A stretch of 64,000 nucleotides of DNA from a virus (lineage: Duplodnaviria > Caudoviricetes): positions 64,001 through 128,000 of the IMG/VR virus record IMGVR_UViG_3300021400_001615. One strand, 5' to 3'. A program made the translations under genes and the position numbers. Under the pieces are notes generated by a model, which saw only the letters and a program-made list of their open reading frames with translations, did no database searches and was not told the origin of the DNA. Shown here piece after piece: positions 10,834 to 26,184 of this stretch (the first letter of the stretch is position 1; each line of letters opens with the position of its first letter).

Positions 10834-12492
10834 ATGCATAAAAAGTTATTGACGATTGATGATCTTGTAAAATTCTGCGACTAGAACAATTTTGCAAAAT
10901 TTAGTTCTAAGGAATCTGGTTATCAAATTTGCATATAGACACCGGCAAAATTTGAAATGAGTAGCTCTGATGATCCAACTATGTTTTATGGAAATGTCTT
11001 AGTAATGCATTCTGGTAATAACAGGAATGGATCCTCTTTGACTGAAGATGCGGCGAAGAAGGCAATCAAAAATCTTGCTTATAAACCGGTATTGGCTAAT
11101 TTTTGCGAAATTGATGGTGTAAAGGATTTTACTAGTCATGATTTTGATATAGACGAGAATGGCGAATATGTTTATTACGAAAAGCAAATTGGCTGTTTTA
11201 CTGCTGATAAGGCTTATATGGAACAGGATAGTAATCATAGCGACCGTATGAATGTATTTGCAAAGGTTGCCATTCCCCGTGAATATACAGATGCAGCCGA
11301 AATAATTGAGAGAAAAAACGGCACAAAGGTATCTGTTGAGCTTGCCGTTAATGAACTATCTTATTCTGCTAAAGATCACGTTCTTTTACTTGAAGACGTT
11401 GATGTAATGGGTCTTACTTGTCTTGGAGTTAATCCAGACACCGGGGATCCCGTAAACGAGGGAATGGAGGGCGCTCATATCCAGATTGAGGATTTTAGTG
11501 CCGAAAATAATTCTCTTGTTTTTAATGCAGAGATTATTAATTCGATTGCTGATGCTGTTGCAAAACGGCTTAGTGATAAAAACGATAACCAAAGAAAGGA
11601 GGACGAAACAGTGGATTTCGAAGAAAAAAACGAAGAAGTTGTTGAAGAAACAGAGGTAATGTCTGAAGAAGTTGAAACCACTGAAGAGGAAGTTCGTGAG
11701 GTTGATACCGAGACATCTGAAGAGGTTGTTGATGATACTACTGAAGAAGTCGCTGATGAAACTCCTGAAGTGGTTGATAGTTTTGCCGATGATGATCCGG
11801 TCGATAATACGGATGATAATACGGATGAAAACACGGATGATAATACGGATGACGAAGAAGTTGTAATTGATGATGACACTTTACCGCCAACATATAAAAA
11901 GGTTGTTAATGGTATGGAGTTTGAATTATCTCTTTCCGACATTCAGAATGCTATGTATGATCTTGTCAATTCTACATATGCTGAATCTGATAACGATTAT
12001 TATGTGTGTGAAATTTATCAGGATTCTAAAAGCGTTGTAATGATTGGAATGTGGTCTGGTAAGGCATTCAAACAAAACTACAAAGTCCGCAATGATGTTT
12101 ATAGTCTTGTTGGTGACAGGGTTCCTGTAAGGGCTTCCTGGCTAACTGCCGACGAAGAGGCAGAACTTGACAGAATGAGAAGCAACTACTCTTCTGTCGT
12201 TGATAAGCTGGCTAAGTATGAATCCGAACCACAGAAAATGGACATTTTAAATTCCGATGACTATTCTCAGGTTGCAAACAGTAATGAGTTTATTGCACTT
12301 AAAGATGTTGATAAACATTTTGATATGACAATTGATGAGGTGCGTAGTGCAGCCGACAGTATTCTTCTTTCATATGCAAAAGGCAATAAGATTGATTTTG
12401 CTGAAAATGAAAAGAAACGTGATGGCGGCCTGAAACTGTTTGCTTCTAAGGATAAAAAGAAACCCGGTAGATACGGCAATTTATTTAAATGA
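10834..12492 (+). CDS. Prohead protease/scaffold (YonD-like), TAG at codons 17 and 35
   Basis: RBS AAAGGAGG; TAG at 10882 and 10936; MHSGNNRNGS and KVSVEL protease-like motifs; acidic scaffold-like C-terminal half. Confidence 0.8.
11803..11850 (+). repeat. 12-nt tandem repeat x4 (DNTD) in scaffold linker
   Basis: GATAATACGGAT GATAATACGGAT GAAAACACGGAT GATAATACGGAT. Confidence 0.9.
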
Positions 12493-12555
12493 TATTAATT
12501 GACGCTTGAGATTTGTGTTATAAATCAATAATTACAAGAAAGGAGAATAAGTATT

Positions 12556-13035
12556 ATGGCTTATGGAAAAATTAATATGACAAAGCATGCCATTTGTTTC
12601 CCGTCTAAAGTTCTTGCTGGAAACATGGGCGCTCATATTTTTAACGTAACACTTTCCACGGCTGCTGATAATGGCAACATTATTGGTCGTGGTGCATGGA
12701 ATTCTTTTGACAATTATGCAGAGGCTGCTTGCCCGAACGGATTTGCCGCAAAGATTGTTGATAAAGCTGCGAACGGACATTGGTATGTAGAGGTTACCGC
12801 TGTTCCTAGCACTGGCGAAGCTTTACTTGTTTACAATTCGCCGATTATCCCTTACGAATCTCCTCGTGAGCTTGCTGATCTTTCCAACTTCTGGAATGAC
12901 AAAGATGAGGTAGTAAAGGCTTATACTCTTACTGTCGGTGATATCTTTGAAGTATCCGATGAAGCGTTTACTGGTACGCCAGTAAAAGGTAAAGCTCTTA
13001 CTGTTGCTAGTAAAAAGCTTGTTGTTGGTGCTTAA
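12556..13035 (+). CDS. Head decoration/accessory capsid protein (YonC-like)
   Basis: Between scaffold and capsid; DNGNIIG, LTVGDIFEVSDEAF. Confidence 0.65.
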   Translation: MAYGKINMTKHAICFPSKVLAGNMGAHIFNVTLSTAADNGNIIGRGAWNSFDNYAEAACPNGFAAKIVDKAANGHWYVEVTAVPSTGEALLVYNSPIIPYESPRELADLSNFWNDKDEVVKAYTLTVGDIFEVSDEAFTGTPVKGKALTVASKKLVVGA

Positions 13036-13060
13036 TTTTTGAAGAAAGGAGGGAAATGAT

Positions 13061-14188
13061 ATGAAGAAATTTAATTTTTCTACGCATGTTAATAATGTGT
13101 TTTCTGAAATGGAAACCAATTATGATGAAGTAAGAAATCTGATGTTTGATCTTGCCATGGGAAATGAGATTTTTGATGGTGATCGTGTAGTGCCGAAGGC
13201 AGAGGCCGAAGCAAAGCTGCGTACTGTTTGCTAGAAAATCTTTGGGGTAACCGCCGATTCTTCTAAGCGTGAGCTTAAGAGAGCGTATAGAGAGCATGGC
13301 CGCGAATTCTTCGACATCATTGAAGAGGTTGTTGATGTGGTTATTAATAACGGCCTTAAGGACAATGAGTTCTTCAATCAATTTGTGGACTATAGAAATC
13401 TTGCCCTTGGTGATGCTTATGAGTTTTATAGTGAAGACGACGTAATTCTGTCTATTGCTGAAGTTGGTGTATCTCATCATGATTACATCCTTCAGAGACT
13501 TGGTAAGGGTCAGACAACGACCATTCCGTACAAGAGATATGGTGCTGCTGTTGGTGCTGATATCAACATGTACATGATCGGTCGTGAGGATTGGACGACA
13601 CTTTGTAATGCGATTGCTAAGGCTTTTGCAATTCAGATTCAGCAGGAAATCTATGGCGAAATGCTTTCTGCCGCCAATGCAATTCCGGCTGCTATTAGAA
13701 ATGGTTTTGTTGGCAGTGGCGCTCTGAGTTCTACAACCAAGGACGATTTCGACAAGATTATTGAAAATGTTGAGACGGCTAATGAGTCTTCTGTTGTTAT
13801 TCTTGGAACAAAGACTGCCCTTAAGAAACTGAATGCACTGTCTGATGTCAACTGGAGAGCGCAGTCTCTTAAAGAGGATGTTTCTCACAGTGGACGTATG
13901 GGAGATTATGAGGGTACTGTTCTTATGGAGCTTCCTCAGAGATTCACCAGCAAGACTGATCTTACACCGCTCATTGATAACACTAAACTGTGGATTCTTC
14001 CTGCCAGCCAGACTGATAAGTTCATTAAGATGGTAGATGTCGGGGAAACCGAAATCGATGAAATCACCGAGAAGGGTGAGGAGCATGGTCGTTGGGATGA
14101 TATCATGAAGTACGAAGTACAGCGTTCTTATGGTATTGCTACAATGCTTGGACGTTACTTCGGACAGTGGACTCTGCCCACAGCGTAA
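13061..14188 (+). CDS. Major capsid protein (YonB-like), 375 aa, single TAG at codon 58
   Basis: RBS AAAGGAGG; TAG 13232 in frame; FNQFVDYRNLALGD, HHDYILQRL, VILGTKTAL; position in head module. Confidence 0.85.
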
Positions 14189-14224
14189 TTGTTAATTATA
14201 TAAGGAATAAAAGGAGAAATAATA

Positions 14225-24628: not shown

Positions 24629-24629
24629 T

Positions 24630-25661
24630 ATGGGTAGAAAAACAGTCTATAACAACATTACATCGCCCCAGTTAATATCTTAGGTATTACCAGAGAACAA
24701 ACAACTTGGCGAGGATTTTATTGAATATTTGCAGTCAATTGATCGTTCTCCGAGTACTATCAATCAGTATAAATCAGATCTCTCTATTTTCTGGGTATGG
24801 AATCTACAAAACAATAATAATAAACCGTTTATCAAAATTACGAAACGTGAGTTTGCCAGGTTCCAAAATTATTGTTTAAATACCTGGGGTTGGAGTTCTA
24901 ATAGAATTCGTAGAGTAAAATCTGTAATATCTTCCATGAGTAACTTTATAGAAAACATATTGGATGAGGAAGAAGAATTTGAGGGGTATCGTGCGGTAAT
25001 TCGAAAGATAGAATCGCCGGTTAAAGAAGAAGTTCGTGAGAAAACAATTTTTGAACCGGAAGAACTTCAAAGGCTTTTGGATCATTTAGTTGATCAAAAG
25101 AAATACATGCAAGCGTGTATACTCGCTCTAGCAATGTATTCCGGTAGACGTAAAGCGGAGTTGCCGAGATTTAAAGTCTCTTATTTTGACGATGAGAATG
25201 TCTTTCTTGGATCCTTATATAAAACGCCAGAAAAGGTAAAGACAAAGGGTCGTGGTTCCAGGGGTAAAATGTTAAACTTATATGTATTAAAGAAAGAATT
25301 TGATCCGTACCTCAAGCTCTGGTTAGATTACAGGAAAGAAAATGGAATTGAAAGTGAGTGGCTATTTCCAGCTGCCGATGATCCAGCTAATCATATTAAG
25401 TCAGAAAATCTTGATAATTGGGTTAATACCTATACGAAATTTTTAGGTAAGCCATTTTACTGGCATAGTCTTCGTCATATGTTTTGCACCCAATGTTTAA
25501 AGAAGAACCTTCCTTCTTCCGTTGTCCAGGAAATTATTGGTTGGGAATCTGCCGATATGGTTAATCTTTATAATGATACAACTACAGAAGAAACGCTTGC
25601 CCAGTATTTTGATGAAAATGGTATAAAGGATGTTAAATCAACAAATCTTTCAGAAATTTAA
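24630..25661 (+). CDS. Tyrosine recombinase (YomM-like), TAG at codon 18
   Basis: SGRRKAEL, HSLRH, IIGW, NLY catalytic pattern; TAG 24681. Confidence 0.88.
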
Positions 25662-25686
25662 TTATTAATGATGTGTTTTAGAAAAA

Positions 25687-25718
25687 GCCGTTAAGAGAAA
25701 TCTTGACGGCATTTTTTT
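25687..25718 (+). terminator. Intrinsic terminator
   Basis: GCCGTTAAGA-gaaa-TCTTGACGGC-ATTTTTTT. Confidence 0.8.
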
Positions 25719-25743
25719 AGTCTTAGTTTAAGGAGAAAAAGGA

Positions 25744-26184
25744 ATGGAATATAAATTGGTTATGGATAAATAGGTTATTGATGAATACTGTGACTACTAT
25801 TTTAGCATTCATACTCGCGCTTGGAAAAAACCAATAGAACGCCCTTTACATCCGAGTTTAAATACGTGGATGATTTTGCCAAGAGTTCAAATGAACACAT
25901 TAAAACAGAAATGGAAAGACTTTGGTGTTTGGTGGATTAAAAAACTTGGATATGATGGGCTAATGTTGGATAAGTTTGCTGCTGAAGTAACCGTATATAT
26001 GCCGTCCAGAAGAAGATTTGATTTAGATAATCATTGTAATGAAAAGTTTTTATGGGATGCTTTTATTGAAGCGGGTTTCATAGTTGATGACGATTGTGAT
26101 CATCTTACTTCTCTCTTGCTTAAAGGTGGATATGACAAGGAGAATCCGAGAACAGAAATTATAATAAGGACGGTGGATAATTAA
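25744..26184 (+). CDS. RusA-like Holliday junction resolvase, TAG at codon 10
   Basis: RRRFDLDN, KFLWDAFIEAGFIVDDD, ENPRTEI; TAG 25771. Confidence 0.8.

What the first reader, a model, noticed from the sequence alone, without database searches (positions are those of the whole stretch)
10834..26184. 5'-proximal TAG 'gate' codons in key late genes
Seen: only early TAGs in protease/scaffold (codons 17 and 35 of 552), capsid (58 of 375), adaptor (31), tail tube (30 of about 266), HD-like (36), recombinase (18 of 343) and RusA-like (10), with downstream Gln encoded by CAA/CAG. Inference: one early amber aborts translation cheaply before the switch and minimises suppression load afterwards.
Basis: partly seen in the sequence, partly recalled or inferred. 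Interest (0 to 1): 0.75.

Follow-up and report, generated by a model that had tools for sequence, protein, structure and literature searches.

The report
Early amber codons in phage virion genes
In this gut phage that reads the stop codon TAG as glutamine, TAGs cluster near the starts of late genes more than chance allows, and its capsid gene keeps exactly one early TAG across about 20 relatives, which suggests that the capsid protein is made only when the phage's own TAG-reading tRNA is present.

Summary
All eight TAG positions in the seven listed genes are correct once the starts are set by ribosome-binding sites.

TAGs lie nearer the 5' end than the other glutamine codons of the same genes. 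Mean relative position is 0.42 against 0.48 expected. There are 48 TAGs in the first 60 codons against 32 expected (p about 5e-5).

AT-richness, start-codon errors, a C-to-T mutation gradient and introns do not explain the skew.

The genome-wide pattern is a smooth 5'-to-3' decline, not a sharp gate. Five related recoded phages show it more weakly. A second recoded lineage, phAss-1, shows no significant skew.

Gate-like conservation is limited to three virion genes:
- **Capsid (YonB family):** exactly one TAG in 19 of 20 well-covered relatives. It has moved at least five times, and four of the new sites lie within codons 40-65.
- **YonD-like gene and tail tube (YomU family):** both keep early TAGs with turnover.

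The adaptor, recombinase and RusA genes do not conserve an early TAG. A third of the late genes have no TAG.

My reading is position-dependent selection on a leaky, tRNA-dependent codon, with a maintained single early TAG in the capsid gene. This refines published late-gene recoding. The scan has noted early-TAG "gates" on other DNA, with mixed verdicts.

The parts
10834..12492 (+). TAG at codon 17 (10882-10884) and codon 35 (10936-10938).
   Evidence: SD AAGGAGG plus ATG. TAG coordinates. The orthologue in L077 carries PF27290 YonD_N. All 18 well-covered orthologues have 1-4 TAGs, with relative position 0.212 against 0.474 expected.
13061..14188 (+). Major capsid protein (YonB family, 375 aa). 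Its single TAG is at codon 58 (13232-13234), the first of 12 Gln-family codons.
   Evidence: Orthologues carry PF27364 YonB. tblastn hits are annotated 'major capsid protein'. Exactly one TAG in 19 of 20 well-covered relatives; sites 40, 47, 51, 58, 65 and 317.
14831..15289 (+). TAG at codon 31 (14921-14923), followed directly by ATG ATG.
   Evidence: Relatives carry 0-5 TAGs with no 5' skew, and most keep a TAG at codon 116.
15620..18600 (+). One gene split by group I introns and a homing-endonuclease ORF. Exon 1 is 15620 to about 16165 and exon 2 about 17989 to 18600. All seven TAGs lie in codons 24-172 of about 385.
   Evidence: Rfam Intron_gpI at 16154-16432 and 16557-16819. The two parts form one ORF in L007, L009 and L058. 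Joined codon list.
20065..20868 (+). Tail tube gene (YomU family, 267 aa). Its single TAG is at codon 30 (20152-20154), the first Gln-family codon.
   Evidence: The orthologues at L077 13229-14032 and L079 carry PF27173 YomU_Tube. In relatives the TAGs are at 14, 18, 30, 32, 156 and 171, and 3 of 11 well-covered orthologues have none.
23237..23550 (+). The genome's only TAG-reading tRNA. It is a class II tRNA whose CUA anticodon forms only after a group I intron of about 213 nt is removed. An intrinsic terminator lies at 23200-23229, 8 nt upstream.
   Evidence: aragorn -i, sequence, Rfam Intron_gpI at 50.5 bits and E 5.7e-12, terminator. Relatives carry uninterrupted tRNA-CUA genes.
24122..24628 (+). 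TAG at codon 36 (24227-24229). The start is ambiguous (24071 or 23969 are possible).
   Evidence: No orthologue was found in the fetched relatives.
24630..25661 (+). Tyrosine recombinase/integrase-like gene (343 aa). TAG at codon 18 (24681-24683).
   Evidence: phrog_1 integrase, E 1e-39.. The one close orthologue (L012) has TAGs at 18, 46, 300 and 325.
25744..26184 (+). RusA-like resolvase gene (146 aa). TAG at codon 10 (25771-25773).
   Evidence: phrog_1682 and phrog_34.. Orthologues have TAGs at 32 and 55; at 41, 49, 81 and 111; and at 109.
57219..62483 (+). Its only TAGs are at codons 26, 47 and 50, among 55 Gln-family codons.
   Evidence: No Pfam hit. No relatives were found.

Best explanation
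**Setting.** This is a complete SPbeta-like phage genome of about 161 kb. Its late (+ strand) genes use UAG as a glutamine codon. UAG is read by one phage tRNA(CUA), which must compete with the host's release factor 1, because the phage has no release-factor gene of its own.

**Mechanism.** Each UAG is therefore a conditional and leaky codon. With little mature tRNA, the ribosome stops there. With the tRNA present, some ribosomes still stop. Selection acts on where such codons sit.
- In abundant virion proteins UAGs are kept few and early, so aborted products are short.
- In rare, very long proteins such as the tape measure they are many and spread out.
- On top of this gradient, the capsid gene keeps exactly one UAG in codons 40-65. 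The YonD-like and tube genes keep early UAGs less strictly.
- That single codon ties capsid synthesis to the suppressor tRNA at the lowest possible cost.

**Shown**
- TAG is a sense codon equivalent to Gln.
- There is a single tRNA(CUA) gene, and it is split by an intron.
- TAG positions are skewed towards the 5' end.
- The single capsid TAG is conserved and has relocated.

**Inferred**
- Competition with release factor 1.
- The cost argument.
- The idea that the kept UAG acts as a gate in time or in the prophage state.
For: **TAG is a sense codon read as Gln**
- Reading TAG as sense gives 94% coding against 68% under the standard code.
- At our TAG sites relatives have Q 33 times, TAG 27, E 12 and K 8.
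- A sister clade that uses the standard code has no in-frame TAG in these genes.

**Decoding machinery**
- The only tRNA(CUA) is intron-split and lies at 23237-23550.
- The genome has no RF-1 domain gene.

**The skew and its controls**
- Main tests.
- TAG against CAA alone, p 6e-4. CAA against CAG, z 0.05. Ignoring codons 1-20, z -3.85.
- C-to-T Leu controls, z -0.6 and +0.9.
- All five relatives go the same way; pooled z -5.7, and z -3.5 for start-validated genes.
- Observed/expected falls from about 1.25-1.45 in the first two deciles to about 0.6-0.77 in the last two.

**Capsid gene**
- 19 of 20 well-covered relatives have exactly one TAG, none has two, and one has none.
- Sites are 40, 47, 51, 58, 65 and 317. 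Four lie at columns that are not Gln elsewhere.
- Another TAG is present in 0 of 15 sequences with TAG58 and in 6 of 7 without it. Fisher p is about 9e-5, my own arithmetic.

**Other families**
- YonD-like and tube show a 5' skew in relatives, z -5.0 and -3.5.

**Theory**
Against: - The effect is modest genome-wide, about 1.4-1.6-fold in codons 11-60, and weaker in relatives (162 TAGs in the first 60 codons against 141 expected).
- phAss-1, another TAG-recoded lineage, shows no significant skew (z -1.3 to -1.45). Its capsid homologue was not among the TAG-bearing ORFs my caller listed, and it is annotated as one uninterrupted CDS.
- One recoded relative (L078) has a capsid gene with no TAG. 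Three of 11 tube genes have none.
- 25 of 75 late genes have no TAG. g14225 has none in 18 of 19 relatives.
- Adaptor, recombinase and RusA do not conserve an early TAG.
- Other rare codons show a weaker gradient in the same direction (rare Arg z -2.5). Part of the skew is therefore generic.
- Relatives share ancestry, so the pooled p-values are too optimistic.
- No expression, timing or suppression-efficiency data exist for this phage.
- The tRNA has a long variable arm, which tRNA-Gln never has. Its amino-acid identity is therefore unproven.
Confidence: 0.5

Rival explanations
1. Pure cost gradient with no gate. Every UAG is slightly harmful because some ribosomes terminate there, and the harm grows with the length already made. 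UAGs therefore survive by drift mainly near 5' ends and in weakly expressed genes. No UAG is kept for a function.
For: - The decline is smooth over all deciles, in short and in giant genes.
- The last Gln codon is depleted in TAG in relatives, 36 against 49.5 expected.
- Other rare codons show weaker gradients in the same direction.
- Many abundant-looking late genes have no TAG.
- Theory and yeast data support the idea (PMC13271495).
Against: - Under this model a capsid gene with no TAG should be the favoured, absorbing state. Yet 19 of 20 well-covered relatives keep exactly one TAG.
- Five independent losses of TAG58 came with a new TAG, four of them made by non-synonymous change inside codons 40-65.
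- Third-position divergence is high even between close pairs, 110 of 374 third positions between L007 and L058. Mutation is therefore not limiting.
Confidence: 0.25
2. Translational ramp. Slow codons are favoured in the first 30-60 codons to space ribosomes, and UAG is simply the slowest codon available.
For: - The enrichment peaks at codons 11-60 in this genome.
- AAA over AAG and rare Arg codons are mildly 5'-skewed.
Against: - ATA, GGG and CCC/CCG, all rare codons, show no significant skew in this genome.
- The depletion continues to the last deciles, far beyond a ramp.
- A ramp does not predict exactly one TAG per capsid gene.
Confidence: 0.08
3. Tolerance of N-terminal regions. If decoding of UAG is ambiguous or inserts a residue other than Gln (the tRNA is class II), UAG would be tolerated only in variable or cleaved N-terminal segments.
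For: - The tRNA(CUA) has a long variable arm and G73.
- New capsid TAGs arose at variable, non-Gln columns 40, 47, 51 and 65.
Against: - TAG sites align mostly with Gln in relatives.
- TAG58 and the residues around it are otherwise highly conserved.
- The permutation already uses the other Gln codons of the same gene as the null, so Gln codons in general are not 5'-skewed in the same way.
Confidence: 0.07
4. Chance plus selective reading. The reader picked the genes that fit, and misplaced gene starts pulled upstream TAGs into the ORFs.
For: - Two upstream TAGs really are artefacts of that kind: codon 11 of the long ORF at 4178 and codon 12 of the long ORF at 19960, both upstream of the SD-supported starts.
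Against:
- It survives ignoring codons 1-20 and restriction to start-validated genes.
- It holds in late genes outside the finding's range.
Confidence: 0.04

Closest known systems
Stop-codon-recoded (code 15, TAG to Gln) gut phages with recoding concentrated in late and lysis genes (Borges et al., bioRxiv 10.1101/2021.08.26.457843; Peters et al., PMC9523058; phAss-1, PMC10607447)
   Same: - In-frame TAG in late structural genes and TAG-poor early genes.
- A phage-encoded tRNA(CUA).
- A presumed standard-code host.
- The proposal that in-frame stops block late-gene translation until the code changes.
   Different: - Those papers compare genes (which genes are recoded), not positions within genes. 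A text search of the Borges preprint found no analysis of within-gene position.
- New here are the 5'-to-3' gradient and a single, relocating early TAG in the capsid gene.
- The tRNA here is split by an intron. phAss-1 does not share the skew.
Position-dependent selection against nonsense errors, and 5' codon-usage gradients (PMC13271495 and the Gilchrist-type models it builds on)
   Same: - The cost of premature termination grows with codon position.
- Error-prone codons are tolerated near the 5' end and purged downstream, more so in highly expressed genes.
   Different: - That work concerns rare drop-off at ordinary sense codons in cells. Here the codon is a true stop for the host machinery.
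- The effect here is 2-3 times larger than for other rare codons.
- The theory does not predict that one such codon would be retained.
Laboratory amber mutants grown on suppressor hosts (my own knowledge of classical T4 and lambda genetics)
   Same: An essential late gene carries one UAG and is made only when a suppressor tRNA is present.
   Different: Here the arrangement is natural, the phage carries the suppressor itself, and the position of the UAG is conserved or replaced nearby.
Single-gene 'amber gates' with a private suppressor tRNA, noted elsewhere in this scan (e1-5401992, e1-5674410, e1-5770884, e1-5402531)
   Same: An early in-frame TAG paired with a phage tRNA(CUA), conserved across relatives.
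   Different: - Those phages otherwise use the standard code and have one gated gene, with TAG at codons 3-5.
- Here the whole late block is recoded and the early TAG sits at codons 40-65.
- These are unchecked AI notes, not publications.

Membership tests
TAG-recoded (code 15) phage with late-gene-biased recoding | In-frame TAG in conserved, otherwise intact genes | tested here: met
   TAG as sense gives 94% coding against 68% under the standard code. TerL, capsid, tube and about 50 late genes carry TAG.
TAG-recoded (code 15) phage with late-gene-biased recoding | TAG corresponds to glutamine | tested here: met
   Relatives have Q (33) or TAG (27) at our TAG sites. Conversely, our genes have Q at 62 of their TAG sites, the commonest residue (next K 15, E 13). 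No proteomic proof.
TAG-recoded (code 15) phage with late-gene-biased recoding | Phage-encoded suppressor tRNA with anticodon CUA | tested here: met
   Intron-split tRNA at 23237-23550. The splice that gives CU-CUA-AA is supported by P1 and P10 pairing and by an Rfam group I hit. Splicing itself was not observed.
TAG-recoded (code 15) phage with late-gene-biased recoding | Early and replication genes largely free of in-frame TAG | tested here: met
   The minus-strand block at genome 1-47 kb is almost TAG-free.
TAG-recoded (code 15) phage with late-gene-biased recoding | The host uses the standard code | not testable with these tools
   The host is unknown. SPbeta-like relatives infect Firmicutes.
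SPbeta-like siphoviruses | Head and tail proteins of the YonF/YonE/YonD/YonB/YomU families in SPbeta order | tested here: met
   TerL is 44% identical to SPbeta YonF. Orthologues carry PF27290 YonD_N, PF27364 YonB, PF27256 YomW and PF27173 YomU_Tube.
Generic 5' codon-usage gradient (nonsense-error cost or ramp) | Other rare or error-prone codons are also enriched near 5' ends of the same genes | tested here: inconclusive
   In G000, rare Arg z -2.5, CCC/CCG z -1.55, ATA z -0.9 and GGG z -0.4. In relatives most give z about -2 to -2.5. TAG is 2-3 times stronger.
Generic 5' codon-usage gradient (nonsense-error cost or ramp) | The effect scales with expression level | not testable with these tools
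   No expression data. Indirectly, genes with 3 or fewer TAGs and at least 250 aa show the strongest skew, 0.312 against 0.505.
Dedicated translational gate (a UAG kept by selection) | Presence of a UAG is conserved while its exact site turns over | tested here: met
   Met for the capsid gene: one TAG in 19 of 20 relatives across six sites. Partly met for YonD-like and tube. Not met for adaptor, recombinase and RusA.
Dedicated translational gate (a UAG kept by selection) | Protein output depends on the suppressor tRNA in vivo | not testable with these tools
   Needs reporter or infection experiments.

The most novel reading that the evidence does not exclude
The single UAG in codons 40-65 of the capsid gene is a dedicated checkpoint held by stabilising selection: never none, never two. 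It makes capsid production depend on the mature form of the phage's suppressor tRNA, which in this phage needs self-splicing. It would keep capsid protein from being made from leaky late transcripts, for example in the prophage state. This would be the first comparative evidence that the position of individual recoded stop codons is functional.
Probability: 0.3. Interest if true: 0.8.

Novelty: new variant of a known kind. Interest (0 to 1): 0.55.

Why it matters
Whether stop-codon recoding in phages is a regulatory device or a neutral by-product of carrying a suppressor tRNA is still open. So far the argument rests on which genes carry recoded stops.

A within-gene gradient adds a second line of evidence. 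A capsid gene that keeps exactly one early TAG through at least five relocations adds a third.

It also offers a concrete, small test object: capsid codons 1-70 with TAG or CAG, with or without the tRNA.

The result also matters for annotation. In recoded phages a TAG a few dozen codons into a gene is typical. It should not be used to trim the start.

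Tried and rejected
- **AT-richness at 5' ends.** Rejected. TAG against CAA alone is still skewed, and CAA against CAG is flat.
- **Start-codon artefact.** Rejected for the listed genes (SD motifs; alignments from residues 1-4). Rejected for the statistic (ignoring codons 1-20; start-validated sets). Two upstream TAGs, in the long ORFs at 4178 and 19960, are such artefacts and were excluded.
- **C-to-T mutation gradient.** Rejected (Leu controls).
- **Intron and exon errors.** Joining exons of the 15620/17989 gene and the tape measure changed nothing.
- **TAG read as Ser, Leu or Tyr because the tRNA is class II.** Not supported by alignments.
- **Nucleotide after TAG.** No difference between early and later TAGs in this genome. 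In relatives later TAGs have slightly more G at +4 (p 0.006). Too weak to use.
- **Capsid fold.** The AlphaFold model had pLDDT 50 and was not used. PDB sequence searches for the capsid, YonD-like, tube and 24122 proteins found nothing useful.
- **Relatives of the 1754-aa gene.** None found.
- **Intron between 62483 and 62698.** No Rfam hit.
- **Phage release-factor gene.** None.
- **Tube protein against the deposited phage collection.** No match.
- **Literature.** I found no paper that analyses the within-gene position of recoded stops in phages. The search was limited to open-access text.

Full report
**What the DNA is**

The window is bases 64001-128000 of a 160,883-bp contig with a 108-bp terminal overlap, so this is a complete circular-permuted phage genome. 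Reading TAG as a sense codon raises the coding fraction of long + strand ORFs from 68% to 94%.

A minus-strand block at genome 1-47 kb is almost free of in-frame TAG. A + strand block at 57-151 kb is full of them.

The phage is SPbeta-like.
- The large terminase is 44% identical to SPbeta YonF.
- Orthologues of the neighbouring genes carry the Pfam families YonG, YonD_N, YonB, YomW and YomU_Tube.
- The 375-aa protein also hits proteins annotated as major capsid protein in Bacillus phages.

'Protease/scaffold' is a YonD-like head gene of unverified function. 'Adaptor' is unverified. 'HD-like' is not supported, with only a weak DUF5662 hit.

**TAG means glutamine**

At this phage's TAG sites, six related contigs have Q 33 times, TAG 27, E 12 and K 8. 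Conversely, this phage has Q at 62 of their TAG sites, the commonest residue, followed by K (15) and E (13).

A sister clade with 52% capsid identity has no in-frame TAG in these genes. One much closer relative, L075 (capsid 87% identical), has none in 17 kb.

**The decoder**

Standard ARAGORN finds no tRNA(CUA). With introns allowed it finds a class II tRNA at window 23237-23550.

I read the splice as ...GGTCTCT | intron | AAAACCG..., which gives the anticodon loop CU-CUA-AA. Three things support this.
- A U.G pair closes P1 (GGTCTCT with GGACACC).
- TTT pairs with AAA to form P10.
- Rfam scores the insert as a group I intron, 50.5 bits and E 5.7e-12.

Relatives carry uninterrupted tRNA(CUA) genes of 73 to 92 nt inside their late blocks. 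The phage has no release-factor gene, so the tRNA must compete with host release factor 1. That last step is inference.

Another note of this scan (e1-5759656) reads the tRNA the same way. I reached it independently.

**Check of the observation**

Starts were set by strong Shine-Dalgarno motifs. They were confirmed by protein alignments to relatives that begin at residues 1-4.

Two upstream TAGs in longer ORF versions are not coding: codon 11 of the ORF from 4178, and codon 12 of the ORF from 19960. I excluded them.

**Is it more than chance?**

For 75 curated late genes I permuted the TAG label among the Gln-family codons of each gene.

| Gene set | Mean relative position, observed vs expected | TAGs in first 60 codons, observed vs expected | p (position / first 60) |
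|---|---|---|---|
| All late genes | 0.419 vs 0.479 (z -3.8) | 48 vs 32.2 | 5e-5 / 5e-5 |
| Also without the 1754-aa gene at 57219 | 0.435 vs 0.479 | 37 vs 29.1 | 0.003 / 0.02 |
| Late genes outside the finding's range | 0.442 vs 0.486 | 31 vs 21.8 | 0.004 / 0.002 |

The 1754-aa gene at 57219 is striking on its own. Its only three TAGs are at codons 26, 47 and 50, among 55 Gln-family codons.

Controls:
- TAG against CAA alone (same GC content) gives p 6e-4.
- CAA against CAG gives z 0.05.
- Ignoring the first 10, 15 or 20 codons gives z -4.2, -4.05 and -3.85.
- TTG against CTG gives z -0.6 and TTA against CTA gives z +0.9, so no C-to-T mutation gradient is seen.
- Joining exons across the group I introns changes nothing.
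- The first Gln-family codon is TAG in 27 genes against 17.8 expected, p 0.006.

**Shape and generality**

The observed/expected ratio falls smoothly from about 1.3-1.5 in the first two tenths of a gene to about 0.6-0.8 in the last two. This holds in short genes and in giant ones.

Five related contigs (70-127 kb each) all go the same way.
- Pooled relative position is 0.446 against 0.495 expected, z -5.7.
- For start-validated genes z is -3.5.
- Enrichment in the first 60 codons is weaker, 162 against 141.
- Their clearest signal is depletion of TAG at the last Gln codon, 36 against 49.5 expected.

Other rare codons show a weaker gradient in the same direction.

phAss-1 is a distantly related TAG-recoded phage. 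Its skew is not significant (z -1.3 to -1.45). Its capsid homologue was not among the TAG-bearing ORFs my caller listed, and it is annotated as one uninterrupted CDS.

The general feature is therefore a gradient, strongest in this genome, and not universal among recoded phages.

**Gene-by-gene conservation**

I compared 21 recoded relatives.

- **Capsid (YonB).**
  - Of 20 relatives covered over at least 85% of the gene, 19 have exactly one TAG, none has two, and one (L078) has none.
  - TAG58 is in 15 distinct sequences including ours. The other sites are 317 (L007, L073), 51 (L009), 40 (L064), 47 (L077) and 65 (L079).
  - Five of six sites lie in codons 40-65, although 10 of the 12 Gln-family codons lie downstream.
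  - The four new sites in that window are not Gln in other sequences, so they arose by amino-acid change. They did not arise by the easier synonymous CAG-to-TAG change.
  - No sequence with TAG58 has a second TAG (0 of 15). Six of seven without it have another. Fisher p is about 9e-5, my own arithmetic, or about 1e-3 if lineages are collapsed.
  - The relocations fall on separate branches of the capsid tree.
  - Synonymous divergence is high even between the closest pair, 110 of 374 third positions.
- **YonD-like gene.** All 18 well-covered orthologues have 1-4 TAGs. Relative position is 0.212 against 0.474 expected. Nine of 21 distinct sites lie in the first 56 of 552 codons.
- **Tube (YomU).** Sites are 14, 18, 30, 32, 156 and 171. 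Relative position is 0.171 against 0.466 expected. Three of 11 well-covered orthologues have no TAG.
- **Adaptor.** Relatives carry 0-5 TAGs with no skew (0.587 against 0.613), and most keep a late TAG at codon 116.
- **Recombinase and RusA.** Their few orthologues carry later TAGs.
- **g14225.** TAG-free in 18 of 19 relatives.
- **Portal.** TAG-free in this phage but not in most relatives.

**Interpretation**

UAG here is a conditional, leaky codon. Theory and data on nonsense errors say that selection against premature termination is weakest at the 5' end and grows with expression (PMC13271495). That accounts for the gradient and for 'few and early' TAGs in abundant proteins.

It does not account for a capsid gene that neither loses its last TAG nor gains a second, and that replaces a lost one nearby.

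It is good for the capsid gene, fair for the YonD-like and tube genes, and not supported for the other four genes or as a general rule.

What the gate is for was not tested. Candidates are a delay until the tRNA has accumulated or been spliced, and silence of leaky late transcripts in a prophage.

**Limits**
- Relatives share ancestry.
- Gene calls outside the curated set are automatic.
- Clustered TAGs in giant genes inflate significance there.
- There are no expression data.
- The class II shape of the tRNA does not fit a glutamine tRNA and remains unexplained.

**Novelty**

Late-gene-biased recoding and its proposed regulatory role are published (bioRxiv 10.1101/2021.08.26.457843). I found no analysis of position within genes there or in related papers.

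This scan has flagged early TAGs on other DNA with mixed verdicts. Single-gene gates were confirmed in some phages. Early position was dismissed as incidental in others.

Noticed in passing
window 23237-23550 (+); G003, G004, G005; phAss-1 record 62445-62532: The tRNA(CUA) of this phage has a long variable arm and G73, so it is class II. The same holds for the 88-92-nt tRNA(CUA) genes of three relatives and for an 88-nt Sup-CTA tRNA of phAss-1. tRNA-Gln is class I, yet TAG behaves as Gln in alignments. Relative G001 has a 73-nt class I tRNA(CUA). How a class II tRNA would be charged with Gln is unexplained.
   Followed up: partly
L075 (ENA ERZ28614116 scaffold_876, 17 kb around the capsid gene): This close relative (capsid 87% identical, same gene order) has no in-frame TAG in any of about 13 shared genes. 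Standard-code and TAG-recoded siblings therefore coexist within one narrow clade, and recoding was gained or lost recently.
   Followed up: partly
window 16154-16432, 16557-16819, 16942-17961, 20880-21221, 21513-22679: Three Rfam group I intron hits lie among the structural genes, with two endonuclease ORFs. One ORF carries a TAG at codon 179. The other, an HNH type, has no TAG. The gene 15620/17989 is split here but is one ORF in L007, L009 and L058.
   Followed up: partly
L011 10001-11387; L070 9053-9427; L071 2229-2610: In some relatives the capsid gene itself is interrupted. L011 has an insertion of about 265 nt between codons 91 and 92. L070 and L071 have gaps of about 370 nt after codon 344. 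These are probably further introns.
   Followed up: no
window 23200-23229 (+): A strong intrinsic terminator (11-bp stem followed by a T run) ends only 8 nt before the 5' end of the suppressor tRNA. No convincing promoter lies between them. How the tRNA is transcribed (read-through or processing) is unclear.
   Followed up: partly
window 62483-62722: The ORF that opens at 62698 has no SD-supported start and follows the 1754-aa gene after a 215-nt gap. It may be a second exon or a frameshifted continuation. There is no Rfam hit in the gap.
   Followed up: partly
L003 17982-18052 (-), genome about 57.6 kb: An HDV-like ribozyme of the Faecalibacterium prausnitzii type (RF02682, 46.4 bits), just before the late block.
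   Followed up: no
window 14921-14929: The TAG at codon 31 of the adaptor gene is followed directly by ATG ATG. Termination there could be followed by re-initiation, giving a protein that lacks the N-terminus. This is speculation and was not tested.
   Followed up: no
window 12556-13035: The 159-aa head gene between the YonD-like gene and the capsid gene has no Gln codon of any kind in this phage. Some relatives have a TAG at codon 70, where ours has Lys.
   Followed up: no
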